From Calditrichia bacterium (GTDB lineage: Bacteria; Calditrichota; Calditrichia; RBG-13-44-9; J075), in contig JANQQU010000026.1 in NCBI GenBank assembly GCA_028284905.1, positions 57,252 to 121,251 of the forward strand: a stretch of DNA of 64,000 nt. The letters run 5' to 3'. Under the pieces are notes generated by a model. The model had not been told where the DNA came from and did no database searches. It was given only the letters and a program-made list of their open reading frames with translations. Of the stretch, positions 5,027-58,676 are shown in pieces; position 1 is the first letter of the stretch, and each line of letters begins with the position of its first letter. Made by a program: the position numbers and the translations under genes.

Positions 5027-6133
5027 TTACGCACTAACGCCACTTTCTGCGACTTGCTTTTTTTTCCCCAGGTCCTTTAAGAAACGCAGGTGGGCAACAA
5101 CGGCGGAAATAACCGAGGGATAGCTAACATACATTACCGAAAATTCTTCGCAGGTTTTCTGGACGATCTTACTGAGCGCGGGATAATGAATGTGGCAAAT
5201 TTTTGCGAAAAGATGGTGCTCGATCTGGAAATTCAATCCACCGAGATACCAGGTGGCCAGTTTGTTTTTCGGGGCAAAATTAGCGGTTGTTTCAACTTCG
5301 TGGATCGCCCACTCATTTTCAATGTTTCCGCTCTTCGGATCTGGCTCGGGGAATTCATTACCGTCGATGGTGTGCGCTAATTGGAAAACGACCGACAGCG
5401 TTAATCCAAGCACCAGATGAACACCAATCAAAGTAATCAGAACATAGTGTAAAGGATGGAAAAAGAGTGGCAATATGAACATGTATCCCACATAGAAAAT
5501 TTTGGTCAGGAAAAACAATGTCGCTTCGGAAACGGAAGGTTTGGCAAGTTTGTAATCGCCGATTTTCCCGGTGAAAAACTTCTTGAAATCGGCATAACCC
5601 ATCCAGGAAATCGTTAACAGGCTATATACCGGAAACGCATACCAATGCTGAAAACGGTGCCAGGGCCGCCATTCCTGATTAGGGCTCAGTCTTAATAAAC
5701 CGCCGGTGTAAAGATCGTCATCTAATTCATGAATGTTGGTGTAGGTATGGTGAAGTATATTGTGTTTTTGTTTCCAGAGCATACTGTTGCCGCCGATAAT
5801 ATCCATAGTAAAACCCATGATTTTATTGACGGTTTTGTTGCGGGAATAGCTGCCGTGGTTACCATCGTGCATGATGTTAAACCCAACAAGAACAAATCCT
5901 TGCGCCAGGGCGAATGCTGTAATGATAGCCATGATTAGTGAAGTGGAAAAGAAAACCAGCAGCAGATAGGAAGCAACCAGCCAGACTAATATAATAGCTG
6001 TTTTTAAATACATTCGCCAATTGGCATTCTTTGATAATTTCTTTTCGGAAAAATATTCATCCACTCTCTTTTTCAGCGTTTTTTTGAAATCGCCGCGTGC
6101 AGGAAAACTAATCTTCTTCATGGAAATTCTCAC
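5027..6133 (-). CDS. membrane fatty-acid desaturase
   Basis: Three histidine boxes (HDGNHG, HNILHH, EHHLF) and N-terminal TM helices. Confidence 0.8.
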   Translation of the reverse strand: MRISMKKISFPARGDFKKTLKKRVDEYFSEKKLSKNANWRMYLKTAIILVWLVASYLLLVFFSTSLIMAIITAFALAQGFVLVGFNIMHDGNHGSYSRNKTVNKIMGFTMDIIGGNSMLWKQKHNILHHTYTNIHELDDDLYTGGLLRLSPNQEWRPWHRFQHWYAFPVYSLLTISWMGYADFKKFFTGKIGDYKLAKPSVSEATLFFLTKIFYVGYMFILPLFFHPLHYVLITLIGVHLVLGLTLSVVFQLAHTIDGNEFPEPDPKSGNIENEWAIHEVETTANFAPKNKLATWYLGGLNFQIEHHLFAKICHIHYPALSKIVQKTCEEFSVMYVSYPSVISAVVAHLRFLKDLGKKKQVAESGVSA

Positions 6134-17961: not shown

Positions 17962-18105
17962 ATTTATTTGCCCGCGAAACACGCGAATTACGCTAAAAAA
18001 AGTAAAGAAAACCAAACTGCTAATTTATTGAATAGGAAATGAGCAGCTTCATCAAATGATAATGCTTTTTTGTGTATTTTGCGTGTTTCGCGGGCAAATA
18101 AATTA
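17962..18105. repeat. 24 bp perfect inverted repeats flanking 94 bp (MITE-like or operator)
   Basis: tatttatttgcccgcgaaacacgc at 17962-17985 and gcgtgtttcgcgggcaaataaatta at 18081-18105. Upstream of ftcD. Confidence 0.5.
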
Positions 18106-21422: not shown

Positions 21423-22406
21423 ATGAAACATCTCATGCTATTAATTTTTGTCATTACTACATTTACATTTTTTTCAAACGCCCAAAGCGGTGAAAAAAAA
21501 TGGTACAAAGGCAACACCCACACTCACACCCTCAACAGTGACGGCGACAGCACCCCGGACGAAGTCGCCCGTTGGTATCGCGAGCACGGCTATCACTTCC
21601 TGGTACTGACCGATCACAACTTCCTCACCAACGTCGATGCCCTGAATGCCCTACATGGCGCCGATGAACAGTATCTGATCATCCCCGGGGAAGAAGTCAC
21701 CGATAAATACGGAAGAAAGCCCATCCACGTCAATGGACTGAATTTAGAGACCTTGGTGCCTCCGCAAGGCGGCAATAGCGTGGTGGAAACCCTGCAGCGC
21801 AATATCGATGCAGTGAACGATGTCGGAGGATTACCACACATCAATCATCCCAACTTTGGCTGGGCCATTACCGCGGCGGAAATGGCTGAAGTGCAGCGCT
21901 ATAAACTGTTTGAAGTATTTAACGGACATCCGCTTATCAATAATTTCGGTGGAGGAGGGATGCCGGGATTGGAAGAAATGTGGGATATCATCCTCTCCAG
22001 CGGCAAGCTGCTTTACGGTGTGGCAACAGACGATGCGCATCATTTTAAAAGTCCCTGGAACCGCAATGCCGCTGCACCGGGGCGAGGTTGGGTCTTCGTG
22101 CGTGCGGATTCCCTAAACGCGGCAGCGATTATCGCAGCATTGGCTAGCGGCGATTTTTATGCATCCACCGGCGTCAGCTTAAAGGATTACCAGGTGGATG
22201 GAGAAAAAATGGTCATCGATATAGAAAATAATCGAGGCAGTCAACAGCGTTTTAGCACCCTGTTTATTGGAGAGAATGGCGAGATTCTGAAGACGGATGT
22301 AGAGAATCCGGCTATTTATCTATTTAAGGGAGAAGAGAAATATGTGCGGGCAAAAGTCATTGATAGTAATGGCAATATTGCCTGGACGCAGCCGGTGATG
22401 CGGTGA
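21423..22406 (+). CDS. secreted PHP-domain metal-dependent phosphoesterase (CehA/McbA-like)
   Basis: AAGAGGA RBS. Signal peptide followed by KGNTHTHT and LTDHN PHP motifs. The longer ORF from 21321 overlaps a repeat element and has no RBS. Confidence 0.7.
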   Translation: MKHLMLLIFVITTFTFFSNAQSGEKKWYKGNTHTHTLNSDGDSTPDEVARWYREHGYHFLVLTDHNFLTNVDALNALHGADEQYLIIPGEEVTDKYGRKPIHVNGLNLETLVPPQGGNSVVETLQRNIDAVNDVGGLPHINHPNFGWAITAAEMAEVQRYKLFEVFNGHPLINNFGGGGMPGLEEMWDIILSSGKLLYGVATDDAHHFKSPWNRNAAAPGRGWVFVRADSLNAAAIIAALASGDFYASTGVSLKDYQVDGEKMVIDIENNRGSQQRFSTLFIGENGEILKTDVENPAIYLFKGEEKYVRAKVIDSNGNIAWTQPVMR

Positions 22407-22500
22407 ACAGTTGTCAGTGATCAGTAAACAGTGAACAGTTATCAGTGAACAGTTATCAGTGAACAGTTATCAGTGAACAGTTATCAGTGAACAGCTGATA
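22403..22500. repeat. tandem array of 14 bp cagtgaacagttat units (~6 copies)
   Basis: Starts at the stop codon of the PHP gene. The leading tgaacagttgtcagtgatcagtaaacag is repeated directly at 23030-23057. Confidence 0.75.
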
Positions 22501-22555
22501 GTCTGTGAATTAAGTTGTTTATGTTGGATTGCTTGTTTAGATAATTAGGTATGTA

Positions 22556-22972
22556 TTATATAATCCAGTTTATTGTTGTAAATAAACCCACAAGGAAAAT
22601 TACTAGAAAGAACAATAAACTACTGATGCATCCCAATTCAAATATTTTATCTTTCCAGTTTCTCTGAGGAAATTCACGAAAAATTTGATCACGGTTTTTC
22701 AAAATTGGTTTTATTCCCCGAATAACCAACTCTCCATCGATCCATTCTTCCTGATGGTCTAAAAGAATTGTATTTTTTTCTTCGCCGGCCACAATTTTTC
22801 TGGCATCTTTTGAGGCCCTTAACAATCGGGCAGCGAACAATTCCAGGCCCTGACGGTTCGCTTCGATATTCATACCTGCGCCATCATATTCAAAGAGTCC
22901 CCAATATGCGTCATTTATTGAATTTGTGGATTCCAGACGATCAATAATATCCTGTAGAAGGTGCTCTTCCAT
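22556..22972 (-). CDS. hypothetical tail-anchored membrane protein
   Basis: 138 aa with a single C-terminal TM helix. Lies downstream of rtcB on the same strand and is bracketed by cagtgaacagttat repeat arrays. Confidence 0.45.
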   Translation of the reverse strand: MEEHLLQDIIDRLESTNSINDAYWGLFEYDGAGMNIEANRQGLELFAARLLRASKDARKIVAGEEKNTILLDHQEEWIDGELVIRGIKPILKNRDQIFREFPQRNWKDKIFELGCISSLLFFLVIFLVGLFTTINWII

Positions 22973-23029
22973 GTTACCCTGCTTGCGTTTAGATGGTACA
23001 GATATGCTATAAATGTTGTAAATTTTACT

Positions 23030-23140
23030 GAACAGTTGTCAGTGATCAGTTAACAGAGAACATGAAACAAATAACAATCGTTAATTTGATCGATAATGAT
23101 AACTGTTCACTGATAACTGTCAACTGTCAACTGTTAATTC
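23030..23140. repeat. direct copy plus inverted copies of the cagtgaacagttat family
   Basis: tgaacagttgtcagtgatcagttaacag is a direct repeat of 22404-22430. 23101-23138 (taactgttcactgataactgtcaactgtcaactgtt) holds inverted units overlapping the rtcB stop. Confidence 0.7.
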
Positions 23141-24630
23141 GTGTCCTTAATAACAAAGCGCGCATTCAATTTCGCCACGGTCGAAGCCAGCCCAGCCTGT
23201 TCCACGGACTTCAGCACTTCCTGAAAATCCTTGTAGGCTGCCGGTGCTTCATCCTTGGGATATTTGCGGCAATTGGTAAGAATATCCATGTCGTCAAATG
23301 AAGCATCAACTGCCTGCTGATCCAATTCACGAATCGCATGCTTTCGCCCCATTTTTCGCCCCGCGCCATGATTCACGCTGTAGCAGCTTTCAATCGCGCC
23401 CGGTTCCCCAACCATTACCGCGGATCCCGCTTGCGGATTTCCCGGTAAGAGAATCGGATGGCCGGTGCTGTAGAAAGGCGTATCCTTCAGGGCAAAATGG
23501 TTCGCCGGAAATGCCCGGGTCGCCCCTTTCCGGTGCACCCACATTTTCCGGTTGTCGACAACTTCCCGACGAGCGATGTTGTGACTGATAAAATACACCA
23601 GCTCGCCAGTGGTGCCGGGCAAGACTTCCTGGAAAGCTTCCAGAACCAAGGCGTTAATCAACATATGGTTAACCGTCGCAAAATTGCCGCCCATGCTCAT
23701 ATCATCAATGTAAGCGTCCGCTTCCGGAGTACCGAGCGGCGCGTAAACCAGGTGTTTGCTATCTGCCGGAAAGGGAATGCTCCAGGTGTTAAACATCTTT
23801 TGCAGATTTCGGAATTGACATTGCGCGAGATGATAACCGAATCCCCGCGAACCACAATGAGAGAAAAATGCCACGTGACCATCCTTCAGGCCAAACACAT
23901 CGGCAATTTCCCGGGCGCGCGGCGAATCTGCGACTTCAACAATTTCGCATTCTCCAAAATGATTTCCGCCGCCGTAAGTCCCCAATTGCATTACTTTATC
24001 GGCAAATTTAGGAAATTGTCCACTGTCGATTAGATACTCGAGGCGGTTTTCCAAAGAAGCTCTGGTCTCGTCATGGCCAGTATGGAATGCATCCTCGCAA
24101 CGTTCTGCCCAGTGAGTAGGAATTCCCAGTGCTTCACATACCGCTGAAGAAGCGCCCTCTATTACAACACGCTTCCCGATAGCTGCATCTACCCGGCGTG
24201 ATTTTTTCGCCGAGCGTTGGCTTTTCCCTGCACCGGTTGGCGTCCGTTCACAGATAGCGTTGATCAGCGCCCGGCGGATGCTTTTTTCCTGAATCTCATC
24301 CGCAGGAATGTTCAATTGCAATAAACTCATCGAGCATTTGATGTCAACGCCTACCGGTCCGGGATAAATATGACTGGGAGAAACCAGTACGGAGCCAATC
24401 GGCGCGCCGTAACCAGCATGGCCGTCCGGATTAAGAACGACATCGGAAACGCCGGGAGCGGTAGCACAGTTCATTGCCTGCTGGAGGCAAATCTGGTCAA
24501 ATCCTTCCCGGATAGTTTCATTGCCGAATACTTTTACCGGTTTGTATTTGCCATCTTCTACCGGGAGAATTGCTGTTGCATCTCCGGTGGTAATCATCTG
24601 GCTGTTTAACTTGATTTCATCCGTCTTCAT
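23134..24630 (-). CDS. rtcB: RtcB RNA-splicing/repair ligase (3'-phosphate/5'-OH)
   Basis: GGGNHF, SVNHGAGR and SHNIARRE motifs and Cys/His metal ligands of the RtcB family. Confidence 0.9.
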   Translation of the reverse strand: MKTDEIKLNSQMITTGDATAILPVEDGKYKPVKVFGNETIREGFDQICLQQAMNCATAPGVSDVVLNPDGHAGYGAPIGSVLVSPSHIYPGPVGVDIKCSMSLLQLNIPADEIQEKSIRRALINAICERTPTGAGKSQRSAKKSRRVDAAIGKRVVIEGASSAVCEALGIPTHWAERCEDAFHTGHDETRASLENRLEYLIDSGQFPKFADKVMQLGTYGGGNHFGECEIVEVADSPRAREIADVFGLKDGHVAFFSHCGSRGFGYHLAQCQFRNLQKMFNTWSIPFPADSKHLVYAPLGTPEADAYIDDMSMGGNFATVNHMLINALVLEAFQEVLPGTTGELVYFISHNIARREVVDNRKMWVHRKGATRAFPANHFALKDTPFYSTGHPILLPGNPQAGSAVMVGEPGAIESCYSVNHGAGRKMGRKHAIRELDQQAVDASFDDMDILTNCRKYPKDEAPAAYKDFQEVLKSVEQAGLASTVAKLNARFVIKDTN

Positions 24631-24690
24631 GACGTTTCCTTTCGATATTAAAAACTAAATTGGACTGTAAAAAAGAAATTCATTATTTCC

Positions 24691-24804
24691 ATCGACAAGT
24701 AGTTGAGAAACATATCCCGACGTTTTCATTTAAACTACCGCCTTGACGGGCTGAGTCGTGAGTCTCAGCATCTTCGGGGTCCTGTAGTTCCTCAGGCATT
24801 CGAC
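24691..24804 (-). ncRNA. Y-RNA-like module 6 (Ro-binding-type stem only; may double as rtcB leader)
   Basis: Outer helix GUCGA/UCGAU and inner helix GAGGAAC/GUUUCUC flank the conserved internal loop (5' AAUGCCU, 3' …ACUUGUCG). The interior holds simple hairpins and no tRNA-like domain. Confidence 0.35.
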
Positions 24805-24822
24805 TTCAACAATTCTACCGCC

Positions 24823-24911
24823 GATAACAAAAGGGAGTGAAACGTTGACGGCCACCTGGGCCGGCAGGATTCGAACCTGCTTTAACCCTTGTAGTTTCAC
24901 CGGCATTCATC
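24823..24911 (-). ncRNA. Y-RNA-like module 5 (stem plus T-arm-like hairpin)
   Basis: Outer GAUGA/UUAUC and inner GUGAAAC/GUUUCAC helices flank a conserved AAUGC…UUUUG loop. Interior has GCAGG-UUCGAAU-CCUGC (T-arm-like) and CGGCC-CAGGU-GGCCG hairpins. Confidence 0.4.
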
Positions 24912-24930
24912 AGCAGTTTTTCTTCATATT

Positions 24931-25004
24931 AAAATTTAGCGGCGACAAGAGTTGGTGAAACGTTGGCTTTTTCCTCAAGTTGTAGTTCCACCAGCATTCG
25001 CCGC
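24931..25004 (-). ncRNA. Y-RNA-like module 4 (minimal stem-loop, YrlB-like)
   Basis: GCGGCGA-AUGCUG-GUGGAAC-UACA … GUUUCAC-CAACUCUUG-UCGCCGC with a 23 nt apical loop and no tRNA-like domain. Followed by UAAAUUUU. Confidence 0.45.
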
Positions 25005-25017
25005 ATTAAACCATTAT

Positions 25018-25050
25018 TAATTCGGAATTCGGAATTCCGAATTCCGAATT
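25018..25050. repeat. palindromic GAATTC-rich spacer (aattcggaattcggaattccgaattccgaatt)
   Basis: Perfectly self-complementary ttcggaattccgaa core located between Y modules 3 and 4. One of three similar spacers. Confidence 0.7.
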
Positions 25051-25188
25051 AAAAAAAACGCGGCGACAAGGATTAGTGAAACTTTCTCCATGCTCTATCC
25101 AATTGAGCTACGCCAATCTTGCGATCGACGCCGGGATTCGAACCCGGAACCCTGGCATTAAAAGTGTAGTTTCACCAGCATTCGCCGC
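25051..25188 (-). ncRNA. Y-RNA-like module 3 (YrlA-like, with permuted tRNA-like domain)
   Basis: 5' strand GCGGCGA-AUGCUG-GUGAAAC-UACA. Then T-arm CCGGG-UUCGAAU-CCCGG, an acceptor-like hairpin CGUCGAU-CGCAAG-AUUGGCG, UA, and D-arm GCUC-AAUUGGAUA-GAGC. 3' strand GUUUCAC-UAAUCCUUG-UCGCCGC followed by GUUUUUUUU. Confidence 0.55.
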
Positions 25189-25194
25189 ATTTAG

Positions 25195-25271
25195 CCGGAG
25201 CGAAGGGACTCGAACCCCTGACCATGAGATTTCACCTCATTGCTCTCAATTACCAACTGAGCTACGCTCCG
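25195..25271 (-). tRNA. tRNA-Phe(GAA)-like cloverleaf B (13 nt D-loop, no encoded CCA)
   Basis: Minus-strand read: CGGAGCG UA GCUC AGUUGGUAAUUGA GAGC A AUGAG GUGAAAU CUCAU GGUC AGGGG UUCGAGU CCCUU CGCUCCG G. Has a 7 bp acceptor and anticodon GAA. Its 3' end lies 7 nt before the 5' end of Y module 3. Confidence 0.5.
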
Positions 25272-25276
25272 TAAAG

Positions 25277-25309
25277 AATTCGGAATTCCGAACTCCGAAT
25301 TCCGAATTT
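25277..25309. repeat. palindromic GAATTC-rich spacer, copy 2
   Basis: gaattcggaattccgaactccgaattccgaatt, located between module 2 and tRNA-like B. Confidence 0.7.
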
Positions 25310-25428
25310 AAAAAAGTTACAACGACAAGTGTTTGTGAAACATGCTCTACCAACTGAGCTACGCCAATCTTGCAATTGACGCCGGGATTCGAACCCGGGA
25401 CAGTGTAGTTTCACAGGCATTCGTTGTT
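25310..25428 (-). ncRNA. Y-RNA-like module 2 (compact YrlA-like, with permuted tRNA-like domain)
   Basis: ACAACGA-AUGCCU-GUGAAAC-UACA-CUGU, then T-arm CCGGG-UUCGAAU-CCCGG, acceptor-like hairpin CGUCAAU-UGCAAG-AUUGGCG, UA, D-arm GCUC-AGUUGGUA-GAGC, AU. 3' strand GUUUCAC-AAACACUUG-UCGUUGU followed by AACUUUUUU. The outer helix covaries relative to modules 1, 3 and 4. Confidence 0.55.
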
Positions 25429-25431
25429 TAG

Positions 25432-25505
25432 CCGGAGCGAAGGGATTCGAACCCCTGACACGTGGATTTTCACTCCACTGCTCGTACCAACTGAGCTACG
25501 CTCCG
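25432..25505 (-). tRNA. tRNA-Phe(GAA)-like cloverleaf A (no encoded CCA)
   Basis: Minus-strand read: CGGAGCG UA GCUC AGUUGGUAC GAGC A GUGGA GUGAAAA UCCAC GUGUC AGGGG UUCGAAU CCCUU CGCUCCG G. Canonical arms and anticodon GAA. Unusual C1:G72 and G73. Its 3' end lies about 7 nt before the 5' end of Y module 2. Confidence 0.55.
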
Positions 25506-25509
25506 TAGT

Positions 25510-25542
25510 GAATTCGGAATTCCGAATTTCGAATTCCGAATT
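25510..25542. repeat. palindromic GAATTC-rich spacer, copy 3
   Basis: gaattcggaattccgaatttcgaattccgaatt, located between module 1 and tRNA-like A. Confidence 0.7.
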
Positions 25543-25543
25543 A

Positions 25544-25769
25544 GAAAAATTAGCGGCGACAAGGGTTAACGAAACGTTACCGCGCTCTACCAACTGAGCT
25601 ACGCCAACCGTTTATAAAAAAGTTCAAAGTTCAACGTTCAGAGTTTAGAGTTCAGAGTTGCTCACTTGCCCCTTTGGGGTTTGCTCGTCTGACGAACTTA
25701 TAGGGTTGGCGCCGGGATTCGAACCCGGGACCTCGTCATCCTCAATGTAGTTTCGCAAGCATTCGCCGC
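25544..25769 (-). ncRNA. Y-RNA-like module 1 (YrlA-like; acceptor-like helix interrupted by ~95 nt repeat-rich insertion)
   Basis: GCGGCGA-AUGCUUG-CGAAAC-UACA, then T-arm CCGGG-UUCGAAU-CCCGG, then CGCCAAC. A 95 nt insert follows, containing gttcaaagttcaacgttcagagtttagagttcagagtt repeats. Then GUUGGCG-UA, D-arm GCUC-AGUUGGUA-GAGC, and 3' strand GUUUCG-UUAACCCUUG-UCGCCGC followed by UAAUUUUU. Confidence 0.45.
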
Positions 25770-25812
25770 TAATTTTTCTCAAGATTTCAAAGATCAAAAA
25801 TCGTTTATTTTC

Positions 25813-25837
25813 GCCGGGATGGGAACGCCATCCCGGC
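25813..25837. terminator. GC-rich 10 bp hairpin at the 3' end of rsr (possible bidirectional terminator)
   Basis: gccgggatgg-gaacg-ccatcccggc followed on the plus strand by GGUUUUUCGGUUU. The stem uses the same cccatcccgg motif as the 128 bp repeat family. Confidence 0.4.
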
Positions 25838-25848
25838 GGTTTTTCGGT

Positions 25849-27414
25849 TTACAGGCTTATTCTCTTAATTTCATTCGTGAAGTAGTCTTCACTTAAACGT
25901 CCGGCTGCGAAATCGCTGATGATCCGGAATACCTGGTCGGAGAATCCACCGACATGGAGGATGTCCTCCCGCTGGTAAGTTTGGCTGGTTTGATACGGTT
26001 GAATATCCAAACATACCAGTTTTGCCTGCGGATTCCGTTGCCGGAACTTATTCCATTCCCACATCATGCCGGTGCCGTTTCTTCCACTCCGGGCATCAAC
26101 CCAGGACTGATTGTCGGAGACATACAATACCAGGTCGCCTTTTGCAGCGTTTTTGTTGAGCAATTTCAGCGGTGCGCTGCAATTGGTGCTGCCGCCACCG
26201 ATGTTTGCCAATTTTTCCGCATTGGTCATGATGCTGTCCCGGGAGTTCAGGCGAACTTTCACCACCCGGCCTTCGAAGGGAATTATTTCCGCTTCGCTAT
26301 TTTTCCGGAGCACTGCTGCGGCGACCAGCGCTGCGATATCGATACATCTTGCTTTGCTGGTAGCGCCTTTCCGGCTGCCGGTTGCTGCCGTCCAGGTCAT
26401 TGAACCAGAGACATCCGGGCAAACATAGACTTTGCCTTCAATTGCCGGCACATTTTCTACCGCGATTTCCATCGCATCTTGCAATGCGTTGATAATTTTC
26501 CGCGGTATGTCTCCGCTTGCCGCCAGGTACGCCATCATCAACTGATAGGGGAATACCCGCGATTTTGCTATGGCCGTCCGGTCTCTCAACCGCTCGGCGA
26601 TCATGGAGACGATTTCACCGGCATTGCCCTGGAATACACCTTGTCTGGCAAAAGTGTTCAGATTCATTCTGGTCATTTGCCAGGAGGCATTTTGAGCGAT
26701 AGCCGTCCATTCCCACTTGCCTAAAGACAGGGAAGTGAGCATCTGGAAAGGCACGTTCGGCATCGGCTGGTTCTTATCCGCCTTGTAGCTTTCGTATGCA
26801 CGAACAATTTCCGGGAGCATTTCCGCGTTATAATCCCGGCCGATCAGGTAGCCATAAAGCGCTTCCCGGCTCGCTGATTGCGGCTTCGGGTGAACCATCT
26901 TCAGAATATCGACGATCGAAGGGCTGTTGCCCACTGACGCCCGGAAGATCTGTTCGTCACTACGACTTTCCAGCCATTGCCGCACCAGTCGTTTCGGCAG
27001 GGTGCCAAGGGATTTACGTCCTACTACGCCGGAACGCATTATCTGAACGAAATTCCGCAGCATTTTGCCATTGTCAATTACCCGTTCGAATACTACCGGT
27101 AGTAATTCCGGTGCATCCACTGAAAGCCTGGCACATAACAGGGCGGGCATATCTTTCATATAGCCATATTCCCTGGCGTAGATCGCTGTTCTCGCGATAT
27201 ATTCAGCATCCACTTCTTCGCAAAGAGAAAGCACTGTTTCCAGTTGCATTCCTGCGGACGCATAGAATGTATCGTTGAGACAGCCAGTGACCGCGTATTG
27301 TGCCAATGCTTCTTCCGGGGAACGCTGGTATGCCGGTGCGCCTTCCTGATTTACTGCATTCGTTCTGCGCAGCATTCGTCCCCGAATCGATTGAAACAAA
27401 TTCTTGTTAGCCAT
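25849..27414 (-). CDS. rsr: Ro60-related protein Rsr (TROVE domain plus vWA domain)
   Basis: TROVE-domain N-terminus and a C-terminal vWA/MIDAS-like region. Located beside the Y-RNA-like array and rtcB, with rtcR divergent. Confidence 0.85.
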   Translation of the reverse strand: MANKNLFQSIRGRMLRRTNAVNQEGAPAYQRSPEEALAQYAVTGCLNDTFYASAGMQLETVLSLCEEVDAEYIARTAIYAREYGYMKDMPALLCARLSVDAPELLPVVFERVIDNGKMLRNFVQIMRSGVVGRKSLGTLPKRLVRQWLESRSDEQIFRASVGNSPSIVDILKMVHPKPQSASREALYGYLIGRDYNAEMLPEIVRAYESYKADKNQPMPNVPFQMLTSLSLGKWEWTAIAQNASWQMTRMNLNTFARQGVFQGNAGEIVSMIAERLRDRTAIAKSRVFPYQLMMAYLAASGDIPRKIINALQDAMEIAVENVPAIEGKVYVCPDVSGSMTWTAATGSRKGATSKARCIDIAALVAAAVLRKNSEAEIIPFEGRVVKVRLNSRDSIMTNAEKLANIGGGSTNCSAPLKLLNKNAAKGDLVLYVSDNQSWVDARSGRNGTGMMWEWNKFRQRNPQAKLVCLDIQPYQTSQTYQREDILHVGGFSDQVFRIISDFAAGRLSEDYFTNEIKRISL

Positions 27415-35101: not shown

Positions 35102-35135
35102 TTTTGTGTTTAACAAACGAACGATTAAAAAGATT

Positions 35136-35247
35136 GAATGTCCAATATCCAATGCTCAATATCCAATGTTGAAGTTGCAAAACCGCTCCGGAGGTTCTAG
35201 CATACTTGGAAATTGAGCATTGGATGTTGGACATTGGACATTGAAAA
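35136..35247. repeat. CCAAT-type imperfect palindrome (long hairpin)
   Basis: Arm aatgtccaatatccaatgctcaatatccaatg and arm cattggatgttggacattggacatt flank a center containing the ctccggag palindrome. Sits between the TPR gene and tesB. Confidence 0.6.
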
Positions 35248-44401: not shown

Positions 44402-44487
44402 TCGCCACGTTCATTTCTTATCTTTAAAATTTTTCTTCTCATCCATCGTATCGGATAAATGATGATTTCATCTCGGTTGCAAGCGAT

Positions 44488-44522
44488 CAACGAACAACGG
44501 ATAACGAACAACGAACAACCGA
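44488..44522. repeat. aacgaacaac tandem repeat
   Basis: caacgaacaacggataacgaacaacgaacaacc. The same motif recurs at 56054-56070. Confidence 0.6.
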
Positions 44523-51555: not shown

Positions 51556-51754
51556 TGAAAAGTAAGTGGACAAATTATTTAGTAGTAAACAGCTCAATAT
51601 AGTTTGCTGATGTTTTGCCCATTTGCATATTTGCAAATTTACAAACGGGCAAAGGGAGGCTGAATGACACCGCTTTTATCAAATTTTTTGTCCAATCACT
51701 TAACAGTCTTTATTTAATTCTACATCAGAACAATTATTTCGGAGGATTTAATTT

Positions 51755-53911: not shown

Positions 53912-54055
53912 ATGCCGGAAGAAAAAGATAATCAATCCACCCCGGAAGAGAAGCCCCCGCTGTTTCAGACCTGGAACGGTTGGTATACGCTGGTGCTGGT
54001 CAACCTGGTGGCGATGATATTGCTATTTTACCTGTTCATGGTTTATTTTCAATAG
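53912..54055 (+). CDS. small (47 aa) single-TM protein upstream of a solute:sodium symporter
   Basis: AAGAGGA RBS 6 nt before the ATG. MPEEKDNQSTPEEKPPLFQTWNGWYTLVLVNLVAMILLFYLFMVYFQ. Not in the ORF track because it is under 60 aa. Confidence 0.4.
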   Translation: MPEEKDNQSTPEEKPPLFQTWNGWYTLVLVNLVAMILLFYLFMVYFQ

Positions 54056-54056
54056 G

Positions 54057-54207
54057 AAGATAGGTGATTAGGGGATTAGGCATTTAGGCTGTTAGGTTTT
54101 ATAGATAAACACTTTCTAAAAGTAAATCGAAATTTTCCAGATCCTTTTTAACCTAAATACCTAAACCCCTAATCACCTAATTCCCTAAACCCCTAATCAC
54201 CTAAACT
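54057..54207. repeat. TTAGG-type palindromic intergenic element (large)
   Basis: Left arm taggtgattaggggattaggcatttaggctgttagg. Right arm cctaaatacctaaacccctaatcacctaattccctaaacccctaatcacctaaa. Confidence 0.65.
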
Positions 54208-54221
54208 CAAGCGAAAATACT

Positions 54222-55925
54222 ATGCATTTACTCGATTGGATCGTGCTTTCCGCCTCACTGTTATTCATTGTCCTGTATGGCGTTTGGAAAGGCCGTGGCA
54301 GTACAAATTTGACCGGCTACTTTCTGGCAAACCGCAGCCTGCGCTGGTATACCGTTCTCCTGTCTATTATGGCGACGCAGGCCAGTGCGATTACATTTCT
54401 TTCCGCACCGGGGCAAGCCTATGTGGATGGGATGCGCTTTGTGCAGTTTTATTTTGGACTGCCGATTGGGATGGTCATCTTGTCCATTACCGCGATTCCG
54501 ATCTATCATAAACTGAAGGTTCATACCGCTTACGAATACCTGGAAAGAAGATTCGATTTAAAAACCCGTACTTTGGCCAGCCTGCTGTTTTTGGCGGGGA
54601 GAGGGCTGGCAGCCGGACTAACGATCTACGCGCCGGCGATTATCTTCTCAAATTTACTCGGCTGGGATATTCATCTCACCAATATACTTGTCGGGGGATT
54701 GGTAATCATCTACACTGCCATCGGGGGAACGAAAGCGGTAAACTGGACGCATTTTTACCAGATGGTCATTATTATGTTTGGTATGGCCGCCGCGTTTGTG
54801 ATGATCATCGTCTCCTTGCCCGGCGATGTTACTTTCATCGAAGCAACGCATCTCGCCGGCAAGCTTGGCCGTCTGAATGCCATCGACTTTAATTTCGACT
54901 GGAACAGCAAATACAATGTCTGGTCCGGTATTCTTGGCGGCATGTTCCTGCAGCTTTCGTATTTTGGTACCGATCAATCCCAGGTGCAGCGCTATTTGAC
55001 CGGAAGCTCGGTGACCGAAAGCCGAATGGGATTACTGATGAACGGCATGGTAAAGATACCGATGCAGTTTTTTATCCTTTATATCGGTGCGATGGTTTTT
55101 GTTTTTTACCTGTTTGAAACACCCCCGATTTTTTTCAATAGCGCGGAAGTTAAAAATGTCCAGGAAAGCCGCTTGCATCAGGGGCAGTTCCGGATATTGG
55201 AAAGCCGCTATAAACAGGCAATCGAACAACGGAAGCTGCGGGCGCGCCAGATGGTGCTGGCAATGCGTTCGGAAGATCCGACAAATATTGCCGCTGCCCG
55301 GAAACATCTTGATGCAGCCCATCGACAGGCTGAGCGCATTCGCCAGGATGCTATCGGTGTTTTGAAGAAAAATAATCCTGACGTCAACCCGCAGGATACC
55401 AACTATATATTTCTCTCGTATGTTACCAAAACGCTCCCCATTGGCCTGGTGGGACTAATTATCGCTGCGATTGTTGCCGCGTCCATGTCATCCACTGCCG
55501 GAGAGCTAAATGCCCTTGCCTCAACGACAATTGTCGATATCTATCAACGGATGATCCGGAAGGATGGCACAGACGGACATTATGTGAATGTCTCCAAACT
55601 GGCGACTGTCGCCTGGGGGATTTACGCCATCATATTAGCGGAGTATGCCAGTCGGCTTGGCTCCCTGATCGAGGCGGTTAATGTGCTCGGTTCACTCACT
55701 TATGGGCCGATTCTCGGAATATTTATGGTTGGCTTCTTTCTGAAGAAAATTGGGTCAAATGCGACATTCTTTGGTGCTTTTCTCGCACAGCTGGTAGTTG
55801 TTTATTGCTTTTTCTACACCGATATCGCCTTTCTCTGGTACAATCCGATCGGTTGCCTTGGCGTAATGTTCTTTGCGTTTATCCTGAGTATCTTTTTTAA
55901 GTTTGAGCCGGTTAAAGAGGTTTAA
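54222..55925 (+). CDS. sodium:solute symporter family transporter with large cytoplasmic loop
   Basis: SSF TM pattern plus an approximately 100-aa helical insertion. Confidence 0.75.
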   Translation: MHLLDWIVLSASLLFIVLYGVWKGRGSTNLTGYFLANRSLRWYTVLLSIMATQASAITFLSAPGQAYVDGMRFVQFYFGLPIGMVILSITAIPIYHKLKVHTAYEYLERRFDLKTRTLASLLFLAGRGLAAGLTIYAPAIIFSNLLGWDIHLTNILVGGLVIIYTAIGGTKAVNWTHFYQMVIIMFGMAAAFVMIIVSLPGDVTFIEATHLAGKLGRLNAIDFNFDWNSKYNVWSGILGGMFLQLSYFGTDQSQVQRYLTGSSVTESRMGLLMNGMVKIPMQFFILYIGAMVFVFYLFETPPIFFNSAEVKNVQESRLHQGQFRILESRYKQAIEQRKLRARQMVLAMRSEDPTNIAAARKHLDAAHRQAERIRQDAIGVLKKNNPDVNPQDTNYIFLSYVTKTLPIGLVGLIIAAIVAASMSSTAGELNALASTTIVDIYQRMIRKDGTDGHYVNVSKLATVAWGIYAIILAEYASRLGSLIEAVNVLGSLTYGPILGIFMVGFFLKKIGSNATFFGAFLAQLVVVYCFFYTDIAFLWYNPIGCLGVMFFAFILSIFFKFEPVKEV

Positions 55926-55926
55926 T

Positions 55927-56233
55927 AGTTCAAAGTTCAGAGTTCAGAGTTAGTATATCTTGCCTGATGCAGCCGTGGTAAAGCTACGGCAGGATCAGGC
56001 ATCGATCTGTAACGCCTTTGGCGTAAATTTCTTGCGCTAACGAAAATTTTTGACCAACGAACAATTAACAACAAATACCACCAATTTGAATCTTTGCCTA
56101 ATGCAGCCGTGATGAAGCTACGGCAGGACCAGGCATCGATCTGTAACGCCTTTGGCGTAAATTTTTTGCGCTAACGAAAATTTTCGAACAACCAATAATG
56201 CAACTTTGAACTCTGAACTTTAAACTTTGAACT
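55927..56233. repeat. composite element: two tandem ~95 bp hairpin units flanked by inverted gttcaGagtt repeats
   Basis: IR-L agttcaaagttcagagttcagagtt and IR-R aactttgaactctgaactttaaactttgaact. DR1 at 55958-56052 and DR2 at 56092-56187 are about 90% identical. Each has a 16 bp stem (cctgatgcagccgtgg/ctacggcaggatcagg) followed by acgcc-ttt-ggcgt and a T-run. Confidence 0.6.
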
Positions 56234-56332
56234 ACCCCCGATATACCCTAATCCCGGTATTTATTACTCGCGAATGTCCTTCTATCTTGTAAAAAATGTG
56301 ACCTTGTTTTCTAACAATAAAGGAGATTTTTT

Positions 56333-58444
56333 ATGCGTTGGATCCAGATACTATTTCTGGCAGTTATTTGCTGCTGGACAGCTTTGTTTGCCCAGGAAGA
56401 TTATTGGGAGGAAACCGGCGGCCCCCATGGTGGTACGATTCATTCCCTGAAAGTAAATAGTATGGGATATCTGCTCGCCGGCACTGCCAACGGATTTTAT
56501 ATTAGCGAAGACAATGGCGAGAATTGGGAAGAACGGAATGTCGGTTTATTACAAAATCAGGATGTAATGGCGGTCGGGTTGAATGCCGCGGAGGAGATTT
56601 TTGCCGGCACGAAGGGGAATGGTGTGCTGCGTTCGTCGGATAATGGGCATACCTGGGAGCAAATTAATAATGGTCTCTTGAGTACAGAAGTCTTTTCCAT
56701 GGGGATTGATGGCGCAGACAGAATCTTCCTTGGCACCGCGGAAGGGATGTATTATTCTCCCGATAATGGCGCGAACTGGATGGCCTTAACCAACGGTATC
56801 TCCAATGCGACGATCTACAAAATTGCCATCAATGCCAGCAATCATGTCTTTGCTGCGACTCAGGAAGGCGTTTATCGCTCGCTCGATCATGGCGTTAGTT
56901 GGAGCAAGGTGAACAATGGCCTCACCCATCTCTTTGTTGTTGCCCTTACAGTCAATATTGACGGGGCGGTTTATGCCGGCACAATAGAAGGCGGACTGTT
57001 TCGTTCAACCAATAATGGCGATAGCTGGGAAAACTATAGCAATGGGTTGACGAATATGAATGTCCGGACGCTGGGGCATGATGCCAGTGGCGTGCTGTTT
57101 GCCGCAACAGAGGGCGGGCTCTTTCGCTATGATGTCACTGAGAGTGATATCTGGGTACCAATCAACGAAGGTTTGATCTATCCTTTCGTTTATGCGATGG
57201 CCTTCTACGCCGCCTATGTTTATGTCGGCACACAATTGGGCGGCATGTTCCGCTCGGAGGATAATGGCAATTCCTGGGTGCGCAAGGTGCGCGGATTAAC
57301 AATTCTCGTGGTGCTGCAAATTATTACCAATCCGGAGGGGATTCTTTTTGCAGCAACGGATGGGGGACTCTTCCGCTCGAATGACGGTGGAATTATCTGG
57401 CTGCCGGTGCTTATTCAGGGCCTTGCTTTTCCCTGGATAACGGCAATAGCCATTAACGCGGTTGGGCACATATTTATCGGCACTTACCTGGCCGGTATTT
57501 TTCGTTCGCTGGATGGCGGCCTCACCTGGGCGTCAGTAAATATCGGCTTAACCAGTTTATTCATAACCGCGTTGGTTATTGGCATTGCCGGGGAATTATA
57601 CGCCGGCACAGCCAATGCCGGGGTGTTCCGTTCGAATGATGGCGGTCTCACCTGGATAGGATATAGCGTAGGATTGATCTTCCTGGGGATAACATCGCTC
57701 GCAATCAATGAAGTCGGCGATCTGTTTGCCGGTACCCGGAATGGCGGTGTATTCCGCTTCTTGCTCAACGGCAGTTCCTGGGCCGCCATTAATATTGGCA
57801 TCGCAGTTGTCTGGATAACAGCGATTCGTTACAGCATATTAGGCTTTCTCTACGTTGGCACCTGGGGAGGAGGCGTCTATCGTTCCGACGATAACGGGGA
57901 TACCTGGAACGGTTACAACGATGGCTTGCCGAGCCTTTTCGTGACGACACTGGGGGTGAATCAACTTGGCTACCTCTTTGTGGGGCTCTTTGCCTGGGGG
58001 ATTTATTTGTCGCTGGATAATGCCTTGACATACGAGGCGATAAACACCGGACTATCTATTCTCCTGGTCTATGCAATTTATTTTGCTTTGGATGGTTTCG
58101 TTTACGCCGGCAGCAGCCGGAGGGGCGTATTCCGCAGCCGGAAATTCACAGCAATCGAGCGCCTGGAAACGCTGGCCATTAAAGGGTTCGAATTAATGCA
58201 GAACTTCCCCAATCCATTCAACCCGGAAACGACCATCCGCTTTACCATCCCTGATCGCGCAAAAGTGAAACTGCAGATATTTAACACAGCCGGACAGATG
58301 ATCAAAACGCTGGTAAATGATGTGCTGGCAGGCGGTAGTTATCAATATCAATGGCAGGCAGCCGGTGTGCCGAGTGGCACTTATTTTTATCGTATGACCG
58401 CAGATGGTTACTCGGAAACTAAAAAGCTAGTGCTATTGCGATAA
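56333..58444 (+). CDS. BNR/Asp-box repeat beta-propeller protein with T9SS C-terminal sorting domain
   Basis: Signal peptide. At least 9 S-x-D-x-G-x-T-W repeats. C-terminal Por-secretion tail (…KVKLQIFNTAGQMIKTL…GTYFYRMTADGYSETKKLVLLR). Confidence 0.8.
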   Translation: MRWIQILFLAVICCWTALFAQEDYWEETGGPHGGTIHSLKVNSMGYLLAGTANGFYISEDNGENWEERNVGLLQNQDVMAVGLNAAEEIFAGTKGNGVLRSSDNGHTWEQINNGLLSTEVFSMGIDGADRIFLGTAEGMYYSPDNGANWMALTNGISNATIYKIAINASNHVFAATQEGVYRSLDHGVSWSKVNNGLTHLFVVALTVNIDGAVYAGTIEGGLFRSTNNGDSWENYSNGLTNMNVRTLGHDASGVLFAATEGGLFRYDVTESDIWVPINEGLIYPFVYAMAFYAAYVYVGTQLGGMFRSEDNGNSWVRKVRGLTILVVLQIITNPEGILFAATDGGLFRSNDGGIIWLPVLIQGLAFPWITAIAINAVGHIFIGTYLAGIFRSLDGGLTWASVNIGLTSLFITALVIGIAGELYAGTANAGVFRSNDGGLTWIGYSVGLIFLGITSLAINEVGDLFAGTRNGGVFRFLLNGSSWAAINIGIAVVWITAIRYSILGFLYVGTWGGGVYRSDDNGDTWNGYNDGLPSLFVTTLGVNQLGYLFVGLFAWGIYLSLDNALTYEAINTGLSILLVYAIYFALDGFVYAGSSRRGVFRSRKFTAIERLETLAIKGFELMQNFPNPFNPETTIRFTIPDRAKVKLQIFNTAGQMIKTLVNDVLAGGSYQYQWQAAGVPSGTYFYRMTADGYSETKKLVLLR

Positions 58445-58494
58445 AAACAATTAGCCCTAAAGGCTATAGTTATACATAAATTTACAAATAGAAA

Positions 58495-58676
58495 ATATGT
58501 CGCCCCTACAGGGCTAATGGTTCTTAACAGGTTTTATTAGCTATAAATATTCCGCCCCTACGGGGCTCAAAACATGCACAAAATAGTGGATTTACAAATC
58601 AAGTCCCATAGGGACGGAATATTTATAGCGCAAAGGTTTTAATTGTCGTTTGAGCCCTGTAGGGGCGACATATTTC
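58495..58676. promoter_or_regulatory. four copies of a 22 bp element in nested inverted arrangement (atatgtcgcccctacagggct family)
   Basis: Copies at 58495-58516 (→), 58548-58570 (→), 58603-58624 (←) and 58653-58674 (←), with 50-55 bp spacing. Upstream of the Rieske-ThDP gene. Confidence 0.45.

What the first reader, a model, noticed from the sequence alone, without database searches (positions are those of the whole stretch)
55927..56233. Two tandem ~95 bp hairpin units (candidate sRNA genes) flanked by inverted gttcaGagtt repeats
**Layout.** The region between the symporter stop at 55925 and the T9SS-protein gene holds the structure IR-L, DR1, aacgaacaa linker, DR2, IR-R.

**The direct repeats.** DR1 and DR2 are about 90% identical. 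Each encodes:
- a 16 bp stem (cctgatgcagccgtgg, loop taaag, ctacggcaggatcagg) with two mismatches;
- a small hairpin acgcc-ttt-ggcgt;
- a T-run (taaatttcttg or taaattttttg).

This is the layout of a small RNA with an intrinsic terminator, present twice on the plus strand.

**Repeat families in common with other sites.** The flanking inverted repeats (agttcaaagttcagagttcagagtt and aactttgaactctgaactttaaactttgaact) belong to the same family as the gttcaaagttcaacgttcagagtttagagttcagagtt block inserted in Y module 1 (25621-25658). The aacgaacaa linker matches the tandem repeat at 44488-44522. The element thus links several repeat families and may be mobile or recombinogenic.
Basis: seen in the sequence. 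Interest (0 to 1): 0.5.

Follow-up and report, generated by a model that had tools for sequence, protein, structure and literature searches.

The report
Duplicated hairpin insert inside heptamer-repeat hairpin
Behind a transporter gene of a Calditrichota bacterium, a resident hairpin built from 7-base repeats holds a young, twice-repeated 110-base insert that a close relative lacks, so it looks like ordinary fast-evolving 3'-end DNA and not a pair of conserved small-RNA genes.

Summary
Two ~110-nt units (55957-56066 and 56090-56200) are 92-95% identical with a 134-nt period. They lie between inverted (AGTTCAG)n arrays at 55926-51 and 56202-34. An independent Logan assembly confirms the duplication.

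The feature has two layers of different age:
- **Outer layer.** The heptamer arrays are a resident hairpin placed directly after the symporter stop. A relative with a 95% identical symporter (L086) has the same hairpin with an 11-nt loop and no units.
- **Inner layer.** The 247-bp unit block (55952-56198) is a lineage-specific indel sitting in that loop.

The same kind of hairpin, made of 7-9-nt tandem repeats, fills many spacers of this window. This resembles the STRR hairpins of cyanobacteria. Strong structure occurs only in spacers that contain a gene 3' end.

The units match nothing in Rfam, genome, metagenome, viral, plasmid or phage collections, or in 80 orthologous loci. I found no convincing promoter. 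The "terminator" is a 5-bp stem separated from its T-run by AAA, and the predicted fold prefers a competing hairpin. The stem of unit 2 is degraded on the + strand.

Best reading: a young insertion that was duplicated and is carried in the symporter 3' tail. The sRNA idea is unsupported but not refuted. Copy number in the whole genome and transcription remain untested.

The parts
55926..55951 (+). IR-L: the left arm of a resident heptamer-array hairpin, (AGTTCAG)3.6. It starts directly after the symporter stop codon (55923-55925).
   Evidence: The homologous arm is present in L085 and L086.
55952..56198 (+). A 247-bp block that is absent from relative L086, where an 11-nt loop (gcgacttttac) takes its place. 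It is a lineage-specific indel in the hairpin loop.
   Evidence: The blastn alignment breaks at 55951 and 56199. The L086 sequence is and the flank alignments are.
55957..56066 (+). Unit 1 (about 110 nt).
55961..56001 (+). Unit 1 long hairpin: 17 pairs with two internal mismatches, -28.3 kcal/mol on + and -20.7 on -.
   Evidence: (I4).
56012..56034 (+). Unit 1 small hairpin ACGCC-TTT-GGCGT followed by AAATTTCTTG (weak terminator-like motif). It overlaps a competing hairpin, TTGGCGTAA-ATTTC-TTGCGCTAA, at 56018-56040.
56067..56089 (.). Unique spacer between the units. It has no significant similarity to IR-L or IR-R.
56090..56200 (+). Unit 2 (about 111 nt), 92-95% identical to unit 1. A 55-nt 3' stretch differs at only one base.
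56095..56135 (+). Unit 2 long hairpin. Three transitions give A.C mismatches on + (-16.0 kcal/mol) but G.U pairs on - (-17.7).
56146..56168 (+). Unit 2 small hairpin ACGCC-TTT-GGCGT followed by AAATTTTTTG.
56202..56234 (+). IR-R: the right arm of the heptamer-array hairpin, (AACTTTG)4.6.
   Evidence: The homologous arm is present in L086.
56235..56332 (+). Conserved upstream region of the T9SS/BNR gene, lying outside the element. It holds CCGATATACC.TAATCCCGGTAT, TCTATCTTGTAAAAAATG.GACCTT and AACAATAAAGGAGA. The gene's own promoter and RBS probably lie here.
   Evidence: long identical runs between the window and L086.

Best explanation
The feature consists of two layers of different age.

**1. 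Outer hairpin (shown).**
- The inverted heptamer arrays are a resident hairpin located directly after the symporter stop codon.
- It is one of many hairpins in this Calditrichota genome that are built from 7-9-nt tandem repeats in inverted arrays, comparable to cyanobacterial STRR hairpins.
- Hairpins of this kind sit in spacers that contain a gene 3' end.

**2. Inner block.**
- Shown: its loop carries a lineage-specific 247-bp block made of a ~110-nt hairpin-bearing unit present twice in the same orientation.
- Inferred: the unit entered or arose in the loop recently and was then duplicated locally.

**How it most likely works (inferred).**
- The block has no promoter of its own and is transcribed as the 3' tail of the symporter mRNA.
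- There, the closed multi-hairpin fold (outer ~30-bp stem, two 17-bp hairpins, two small GC hairpins with U-runs) would block 3'-to-5' exonucleases.
- It may also help end transcription before the separately promoted T9SS gene.

On this reading the element acts in cis and is evolutionarily disposable. It is not a pair of trans-acting sRNA genes.
For: **The unit block is an indel in a resident hairpin.**
- Relative L086 (symporter 95% identical in protein) has IR-L, an 11-nt loop and IR-R, with no units. Its spacer is 158 nt against 407 nt here.

**Hairpins of this type are common locally and in related genomes.**
- The same architecture recurs at 17962-18103, 35134-35245, 54053-54203, 58493-58675 and 25009-25543. 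Most have loops of 28-66 nt.
- It also occurs in Calditrichia MAG L002, including directly after its symporter gene.
- Arrays with 7-9-nt periods occur at 1.6 per 10 kb here and 4.4 per 10 kb in L002. Most of the 80 control loci have none.

**Structure tracks gene 3' ends.**
- Excess structure is confined to spacers that contain a 3' end. Divergent spacers give z of -0.2 to -2.2 (n=5). Two of three convergent spacers give -6.0 and -7.4, and many tandem spacers reach -9.7.
- The whole element folds as one closed structure: -117 kcal/mol, z = -8.4.

**Intergenic turnover is ordinary here.**
- A second IR-flanked indel of 146 nt (51557-51702) separates the window from L086 within the same 10 kb.

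**The T9SS gene has its own conserved upstream region.**
- The region just 3' of IR-R is conserved between the window and L086.

**The unit is an orphan.**
- No homologue was found anywhere, and no promoter above chance.

**Comparable case in the literature.**
- In cyanobacteria, STRR hairpins made of 7-bp repeats lie between co-transcribed genes, and a role in transcript stability has been suggested (PMC2670836).
Against: - The polarity of the indel is not established. L086 could have lost the block. The next outgroups (L002-L004) have non-homologous spacers.
- Neither the IR hairpins nor the units are followed by a canonical U-tract.
- Hairpin energies across the window show no consistent bias towards the sense strand, so an RNA-level role is not demonstrated.
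- A 55-nt 3' stretch of the units differs at only 1 base, where about 4.7 differences would be expected from the overall divergence (my Poisson estimate gives P of about 0.05). This could reflect constraint or gene conversion.
- The boundaries of the duplication coincide with the unit ends, and a unique 23-25-nt filler lies between the units. A simple tandem duplication does not produce that pattern.
- No expression data are available.
Confidence: 0.5

Rival explanations
1. The units are two young paralogous sRNA genes, either independent or derived from the symporter 3' UTR. Each would consist of a 17-bp 5' hairpin, a single-stranded AUCGAUCUGUA stretch and a short terminator. This is analogous to tandem sRNA pairs such as PrrF1/PrrF2 (comparison from my own knowledge).
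For: - The layout of hairpin, linker, small GC hairpin and T-run occurs twice on the + strand.
- The 3' half, which includes the linker and the small hairpin, is almost invariant between the two copies.
- The unit 1 hairpin is very stable, with z = -6.5.
Against: - The units are absent from the orthologous spacer of L086 and from all databases searched.
- No Rfam family matches.
- No promoter is seen between IR-L and unit 1 (7 nt) or in the 23-nt spacer.
- The terminator-like motif is of the weakest class, and the MFE fold replaces it with a competing hairpin.
- All three stem substitutions in unit 2 break + strand pairing.
Confidence: 0.15
2. The ~110-nt unit is a small non-autonomous mobile repeat (MITE-, REP- or PATE-like) that landed in the single-stranded loop of the heptamer hairpin. 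It either landed twice in the same orientation, or once with a later duplication. On this reading it has no host function.
For: - Presence versus absence relative to L086 has clean boundaries inside the loop.
- Similarity between the units stops sharply at both ends, and a unique filler lies between them.
- Removing both units would leave a loop of about 34 nt, typical of the other hairpins.
- The unit carries an imperfect subterminal palindrome, as REP and IS200/IS605-type ends do (general knowledge).
Against: - No other copy exists in 64 kb of this genome, in 18 kb of close relatives, or in any collection searched.
- The Logan contig runs through the first 68 nt of unit 1 without branching, so no other near-identical copy existed in that sample.
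- No terminal inverted repeats or target-site duplication are recognisable.
- No transposase was identified in the genes checked.
Confidence: 0.2
3. The 26-30-nt IRs are recombination sites of an invertible promoter switch (inverton) that controls the downstream T9SS surface-protein gene.
For: - IRs flank a ~250-bp intergenic segment upstream of a secreted-protein gene.
- A weak sigma-70-like match on the - strand (55981->55952) would face the T9SS gene after inversion.
Against: - In L086 the same IRs enclose only 11 nt.
- The IRs are imperfect (87-92%) and belong to a common class of hairpins with short loops.
- The promoter match is at chance level.
- The window and L001 show the same orientation.
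Confidence: 0.03

Closest known systems
Cyanobacterial STRR (short tandemly repeated repetitive) hairpins
   Same: - Tandem 7-nt repeats that can form a hairpin.
- They lie in intergenic and intra-operon spacers such as hupS-hupL.
- Their function is unknown, and transcript stability has been proposed (PMC2670836).
- The flanking arrays here, and about 10 other arrays in the window, fit this description.
   Different: - A different phylum (Calditrichota) and different heptamers; almost every locus here has its own unit.
- No published description for Calditrichota was found in the searches I ran.
- STRR hairpins are not known to me to carry a duplicated 110-nt insert.
REP/BIME elements, and the REP-like 18-nt palindrome of Caldithrix abyssi
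   Same: - Imperfect extragenic palindromes placed downstream of genes and avoided in divergent spacers.
- mRNA stabilisation has been proposed for them (PMC5317091).
   Different: - REPs are defined by one conserved sequence present in tens to hundreds of copies.
- The unit here is 110 nt, is seen at only one locus, and its two copies are direct rather than alternating.
- The C. abyssi motif AACCGTTnnAACGGTT is unrelated.
BrickBuilt MITE of Porphyromonas gingivalis (a minisatellite inside a MITE)
   Same: An intergenic element with small inverted-repeat ends enclosing tandem direct repeats (PMC4596501).
   Different: - BrickBuilt has 23-nt repeats without spacers and 19 copies per genome.
- Here the period is 134 nt with two copies at a single locus.
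- The inverted repeats exist without the interior in a relative, so they are not the ends of the insert.
Tandem paralogous sRNA genes such as PrrF1/PrrF2 of Pseudomonas aeruginosa (from my own knowledge)
   Same: Two units of about 100 nt, more than 90% identical, head to tail in one spacer, each ending in a hairpin plus a T-run.
   Different: - No promoters, no conservation in relatives and no expression data.
- The terminator motif is weak.

Membership tests
STRR-like heptamer-array hairpin (flanking IRs) | Tandem repeats of a ~7-nt unit | tested here: met
   TRF finds (AGTTCAG)3.6 at 55927-55951 and (AACTTTG)4.6 at 56202-56233.
STRR-like heptamer-array hairpin (flanking IRs) | Two arrays in inverted orientation that can pair as a hairpin | tested here: met
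   Arms of 26-30 nt are 87-92% complementary. They form the outer stem of the MFE fold. The L086 version folds to -25.1 kcal/mol with z = -4.0.
STRR-like heptamer-array hairpin (flanking IRs) | Many such arrays scattered through the intergenic DNA of the genome | tested here: met
   Ten arrays with 7-8-nt periods occur in 64 kb, several as inverted pairs. Only 64 kb of the genome was seen.
Independent sRNA gene | Own promoter upstream of each unit | tested here: inconclusive
   There is no sigma-70-like match on the + strand ahead of either unit. Only 7 nt and 23 nt are available between flanking features. The promoter consensus of Calditrichota is unknown.
Independent sRNA gene | Rho-independent terminator: a GC-rich stem directly followed by a U-tract | tested here: inconclusive
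   The stem has 5 bp with 4 GC pairs, and AAA precedes the U-run. Matches of this class are near background (38 found against 25 +/- 5 in shuffles). The MFE fold uses a competing hairpin.
Independent sRNA gene | Conservation of sequence and structure in related genomes | tested here: not met
   The units are absent from the orthologous spacer in L086 and from 80 orthologous loci. They are also absent from genome, metagenome and viral collections.
Independent sRNA gene | A discrete transcript | not testable with these tools
   No RNA-seq data were accessible.
MITE | Terminal inverted repeats that belong to the element | tested here: not met
   IR-L and IR-R persist without the interior in L086. 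The unit ends themselves show no inverted repeat.
MITE | Target-site duplication | tested here: not met
   No direct repeat flanks the IRs (ttaa|TAGTTC ... GAACTA|cccc) or the units.
MITE / REP family | Multiple dispersed copies in the genome | tested here: inconclusive
   No other copy occurs in the 64-kb window. The L001 contig shows no branching inside the 5' 68 nt of unit 1.
Inverton (invertible promoter) | Both orientations present in a population, with a promoter inside | not testable with these tools
Indirect evidence is against it: the same IRs enclose only 11 nt in L086, and the internal promoter match is at chance level.
Any Rfam RNA family | Covariance-model match | tested here: not met
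   At E up to 10 the only hit in 55700-56500 is a spurious mir-2024 match outside the units. No gathering-score hit occurs there.

The most novel reading that the evidence does not exclude
The ~110-nt unit is a new small element that specifically enters the single-stranded loops of heptamer-repeat (STRR-like) hairpins. On this reading the site records two independent same-orientation insertions into an original loop of about 34 nt.

Alternatively, the site shows a pair of sRNA genes at the moment of their birth inside a 3'-end hairpin.

Either version would link the unexplained STRR-like hairpins of Calditrichota to a concrete molecular process.
Probability: 0.1. Interest if true: 0.55.

Novelty: new member of a known kind. 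Interest (0 to 1): 0.25.

Why it matters
**The unit pair itself matters little.** It is an orphan, recently acquired piece of structured 3'-end DNA. It should not be annotated as sRNA genes without expression data.

**The context is of more general interest.**
- This Calditrichota lineage, and at least one other Calditrichia MAG, fills its 3'-end spacers with hairpins built from locus-specific 7-9-nt tandem repeats.
- This parallels the cyanobacterial STRR hairpins, which are still unexplained.
- The window/L085/L086 trio shows these hairpins gaining, losing and resizing loops and arms at about 80-93% nucleotide identity.
- That offers a tractable comparative system for asking how such hairpins arise and whether they terminate or stabilise transcripts.

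Tried and rejected
- **Rfam.** An E-value scan of 55700-56500 and a gathering-threshold scan of the whole window found nothing for the units.
- **Exact-pattern scans.** The 22-nt core (GCATCGATCTGTAACGCCNNNGGCG) gave 0 hits in genome contigs, viral contigs and metagenome contigs. The hairpin pattern gave 3 metagenome hits, all chance matches inside coding DNA, and 0 viral hits.
- **Local similarity searches.**
  - blastn-short and nhmmer against the 80 orthologous symporter loci found only the window's own Logan contig.
  - nhmmer against the window found no other copy.
- **Covariance model.** A model of the unit (R1) searched over the window plus 20 loci gave only the two units, plus a chance hit inside a symporter gene.
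- **Plasmid and phage collections.** No match.
- **Coding hypothesis.**
  - Both units keep a 26-aa TTG-started ORF.
  - It has no ribosome-binding site.
  - The five differences between the copies are 3 non-synonymous and 2 synonymous.
  - The ORF is explained by the repeat itself, so I rejected it.
- **Homology between the loop of the (AAAGTTC)n insertion in the third YrlA copy and the unit's 3' half.** Not significant: 19% of shuffles score as well.
- **Spacer between the units as a degenerate copy of IR-R or IR-L.** Not significant.
- **Strand of function from G.U versus A.C asymmetry.**
  - The three stem changes in unit 2 favour the - strand. A shared G.U pair in the units favours +, and a G.U pair in the L086 hairpin also favours +.
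  - Across ten hairpins in the window there is no consistent sense-strand bias. The result is inconclusive.
- **Protein search with the T9SS protein to reach more relatives.** It was swamped by BNR-repeat proteins and was useless. The exact T9SS protein sequence is not in the collection.
- **Look-up of the 47-aa upstream ORF.** It returned only the two contigs already known.
- **L085, the 93% identical relative.** Its contig ends exactly at the inner edge of IR-L. A perfect inverted repeat of at least 31 nt in a k=31 assembly would explain this. It is therefore uninformative about the loop.

Full report
**1.

The symporter gene (PF00474, 54222-55925) ends with TAA at 55923-55925. The next gene, a BNR/sortilin-like protein with a T9SS C-terminal sorting domain, starts at 56333.

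Between them, the repeat finder reports two features:
- Inverted arms at 55926-55951 and 56209-56234: 26 nt, 92% complementary. A second register gives 30 nt at 87%.
- A direct repeat at 55960-56065 and 56094-56199: 92% identical, period 134.

Tandem Repeats Finder shows that the arms are heptamer arrays, (AGTTCAG)3.6 and its complement (AACTTTG)4.6.

With a 1-nt indel the similarity between the units begins at ATCTT (55957 and 56090) and fades after ...AAT (56066 and 56200). This leaves a unique filler of 23-25 nt between the units.

None of this is chance:
- Patterns taken from the hairpin and from the heptamer array have 0.00 expected matches.
- The 331-nt element folds to -117 kcal/mol, z = -8.4.

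The duplication is not an assembly artefact. An independent k=31 Logan contig from SRR20820731 (L001) is 100% identical to the window. It ends at 56025, which is exactly the last 31-mer containing the unit-1-specific base 55995 before the 35 nt shared with unit 2.

**2. Details that weaken the "sRNA plus terminator" description**

- The long hairpin is excellent in unit 1 (-28.3 kcal/mol, z = -6.5). In unit 2, three transitions produce A.C mismatches on the + strand (-16.0). On the - strand the same changes give G.U pairs (-20.7 versus -17.7), so the strand evidence is ambiguous.
- The small hairpin ACGCC-TTT-GGCGT has five pairs and is followed by AAA before the T-run.
- The scan that flags it finds 38 such sites in 20 kb, against 25 +/- 5 in shuffles. 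These two sites are in the weakest class.
- The minimum-energy fold of each unit uses a competing 9-10-bp hairpin (TTGGCGTAA/TTGCGCTAA). That hairpin places the T-run in its loop.
- No sigma-70-like promoter precedes either unit. Only 7 nt separate IR-L from unit 1.
- Rfam gives nothing for the units even at E up to 10.
- The 'aacgaacaa' link to 44488-44522 is a 10-nt match at E = 5.3, which is chance level.

**3. Whose genome this is**

The best symporter matches in GTDB genomes are Calditrichia/Calditrichota MAGs, at 78%, 71% and 69% identity. The exact protein occurs in an NCBI contig of 174.5 kb and in Logan contigs.

Two closer relatives exist only in Logan:
- **L085** (SRR23272279) is 92.9% identical in nucleotides over 7.7 kb.
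- **L086** (SRR10853130) is 81-87% identical in nucleotides, and its symporter is 95% identical in protein.

**4. The key comparison**

In L086 the symporter-T9SS spacer is 158 nt instead of 407. It reads: stop codon, GTTCAAAGTTCGGAGTT, an 11-nt loop (gcgacttttac), TCTGAACTTTGAATCCTGAAC, and then the same conserved upstream region of the T9SS gene.

The blastn alignment of L086 to the window breaks exactly at 55951 and resumes at 56199. Two conclusions follow:
- The heptamer hairpin is resident. It exists without the units.
- The 247-bp unit block is a lineage-specific indel inside its loop.

The IRs are therefore not the ends of a composite "IR-DR-DR-IR" element.

L085 is uninformative here. 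Its contig stops at the inner edge of IR-L, which is what a perfect inverted repeat of at least 31 nt would cause in a de Bruijn assembly.

The polarity of the indel (gain here or loss in L086) is not proven. I infer a gain, because the other hairpins of this type have loops of 28-66 nt.

**5. The hairpin belongs to a common class**

The window contains about ten arrays with 7-8-nt periods, often as inverted pairs:
- (AATTCCG)n between the tRNA/YrlA modules.
- (GTGAACAGTTATCA)n and its inverse.
- (AATATCC)/(TTGGACA).
- (TAGG..AT)n/(ACCTAAAC)n between a 47-aa ORF and the symporter gene.
- A nested four-copy repeat at 58493-58675.

The (GTTCARA)n family itself recurs at 25619-25659, inside an insertion that interrupts a third YrlA copy.

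The Calditrichia MAG L002 has the same kind of hairpins. One of them lies directly after its symporter stop, with an unrelated 9-mer repeat. L004 also has a 25-nt IR pair at that position.

Arrays of this kind occur at 1.6 per 10 kb here and 4.4 per 10 kb in L002. Most of the 80 loci from other phyla have none.

Folding every spacer of the window gave the following z-scores (mononucleotide shuffles):

| Spacer type | Number | z-scores |
|---|---|---|
| Divergent (start-to-start) | 5 | -0.2 to -2.2 |
| Convergent | 3 | -7.4, -6.0, -1.0 |
| Tandem | 23 | many between -3.5 and -9.7 |

Strong structure therefore goes with gene 3' ends.

The closest described phenomenon is the cyanobacterial STRR hairpin. 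These are 7-bp repeats able to form hairpins, for example between hupS and hupL. Their function is unknown, and transcript stability has been suggested (PMC2670836). The C. abyssi genome paper describes only an unrelated 18-nt REP-like palindrome (PMC5317091).

**6. The unit is an orphan**

No similar sequence was found in any of these:
- GTDB genomes, JGI metagenomes and IMG/VR, searched with two independent patterns. The three metagenome hits lie in coding DNA and are chance matches.
- 80 orthologous loci.
- The rest of the window.
- Plasmid and phage collections.
- A covariance-model search.

The 26-aa ORF shared by both units has no RBS and shows no sign of purifying selection.

**7. Interpretation**

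*Shown:*
- A resident STRR-like hairpin at the symporter 3' end.
- A young ~110-nt hairpin-bearing unit present twice in its loop.
- Frequent turnover of such intergenic inserts. A second IR-flanked indel of 146 nt (51557-51702) separates the window from L086.
- A conserved upstream region for the T9SS gene, lying outside the element.

*Inferred:*
- The block is transcribed as the symporter 3' tail.
- It acts, if at all, in cis as a 3'-end barrier or terminator aid.

I put this reading at about 0.5. The rivals are:

| Rival | Confidence | Main reason |
|---|---|---|
| Small mobile repeat | 0.2 | Sharp unit ends and the unique filler between units fit two insertions better than a simple tandem duplication, but no other copy is seen |
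| Young sRNA pair | 0.15 | The 55-nt 3' stretch has 1 change against about 4.7 expected, P about 0.05, which may hint at constraint or at gene conversion |
| Inverton | 0.03 | The same IRs enclose only 11 nt in L086 |

**8. Verdict**

- Its reading as sRNA genes is unsupported, and its reading of the IRs as part of one mobile element is wrong.
- The finding is an ordinary, lineage-specific piece of structured 3'-end DNA.
- The more interesting matter is the genome-wide STRR-like hairpin habit of this Calditrichota lineage.

Interest 0.25; novelty: new member of a known kind.

Noticed in passing
window 23134-27414: An Ro60/Rsr (TROVE + vWA_Ro60) - YrlA - RtcB locus on the - strand.
- YrlA copies lie at 25057-25188 (75 bits) and 25316-25427 (82 bits).
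- Each is followed by a tRNA-like Rfam hit, at 25195-25271 and 25432-25505. ARAGORN calls only the second one, as tRNA-Phe(GAA).
- The modules are separated by near-palindromic (AATTCCG)n heptamer arrays at 25019, 25276 and 25510.
   Followed up: partly
window 25550-25769 (-): A third YrlA copy covers the whole Rfam model at 65.7 bits, just under the gathering score of 69. It is interrupted by an insertion of about 100 nt that holds an (AAAGTTC)5.9 array of the same heptamer family as the finding's IRs, plus a small GCCCC-TTT-GGGGT hairpin.
   Followed up: partly
window 22403-23137: A 138-aa ORF with no Pfam hit (22556-22972, - strand) sits between inverted 14-mer arrays: (GTGAACAGTTATCA)6.6 at 22403-22494 and its complement at 23097-23137. 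The arrays lie at the 3' ends of two convergent genes, a PHP-like gene and RtcB. It looks like a gene inside the loop of an array hairpin.
   Followed up: partly
window 54053-54203; L085 5840-5985; L086 ~5830-5995: An octamer-array hairpin, (TAGGnnAT)n / (ACCTAAAC)7, lies inside a probable operon, between a conserved 47-aa membrane ORF (53912-54055) and the symporter start. It is identical in L085. In L086 the right arm is conserved, but the left arm and the loop have diverged.
   Followed up: partly
window 51557-51702: A 146-nt block flanked by inverted repeats (GGACAAA...TTTGTCC) encloses the palindrome TTTGCCCATTTGCATATTTGCAAATTTACAAACGGGCAAA. It is present here and in L085 but absent from L086. 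It is a second intergenic hairpin indel within the same 10 kb.
   Followed up: partly
window 58493-58675: Downstream of the T9SS gene, a ~23-nt unit (AAATAT..CGCCCCTACRGGGCT) occurs four times, as two direct copies followed by two inverted copies. This gives nested inverted repeats: 23 nt at 100% and 28 nt at 89%. The spacer z-score is -9.6.
   Followed up: no
L002 1925-2033, 4737-4829, 7700-7881; L045 1941-2030; L063 10740-10906; L077 11000-11061: Inverted pairs of 7-9-nt tandem arrays also occur in a Calditrichia MAG (L002), an Acidobacteria MAG (L045) and two Bacteroidota MAGs (L063, L077). Most of the other ~75 loci have none. STRR-like hairpins therefore appear sporadically in several phyla.
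   Followed up: partly
window, all 31 spacers of at least 60 nt: Excess RNA/DNA secondary structure (z down to -9.7) is found only in spacers that contain a gene 3' end. The five divergent spacers have z between -0.2 and -2.2. No U-tract follows most of the long hairpins.
   Followed up: yes
window 44484-44519: A (CGAACAA)5 heptamer array lies upstream of the gene starting at 44596. It has no inverted partner nearby.
   Followed up: no
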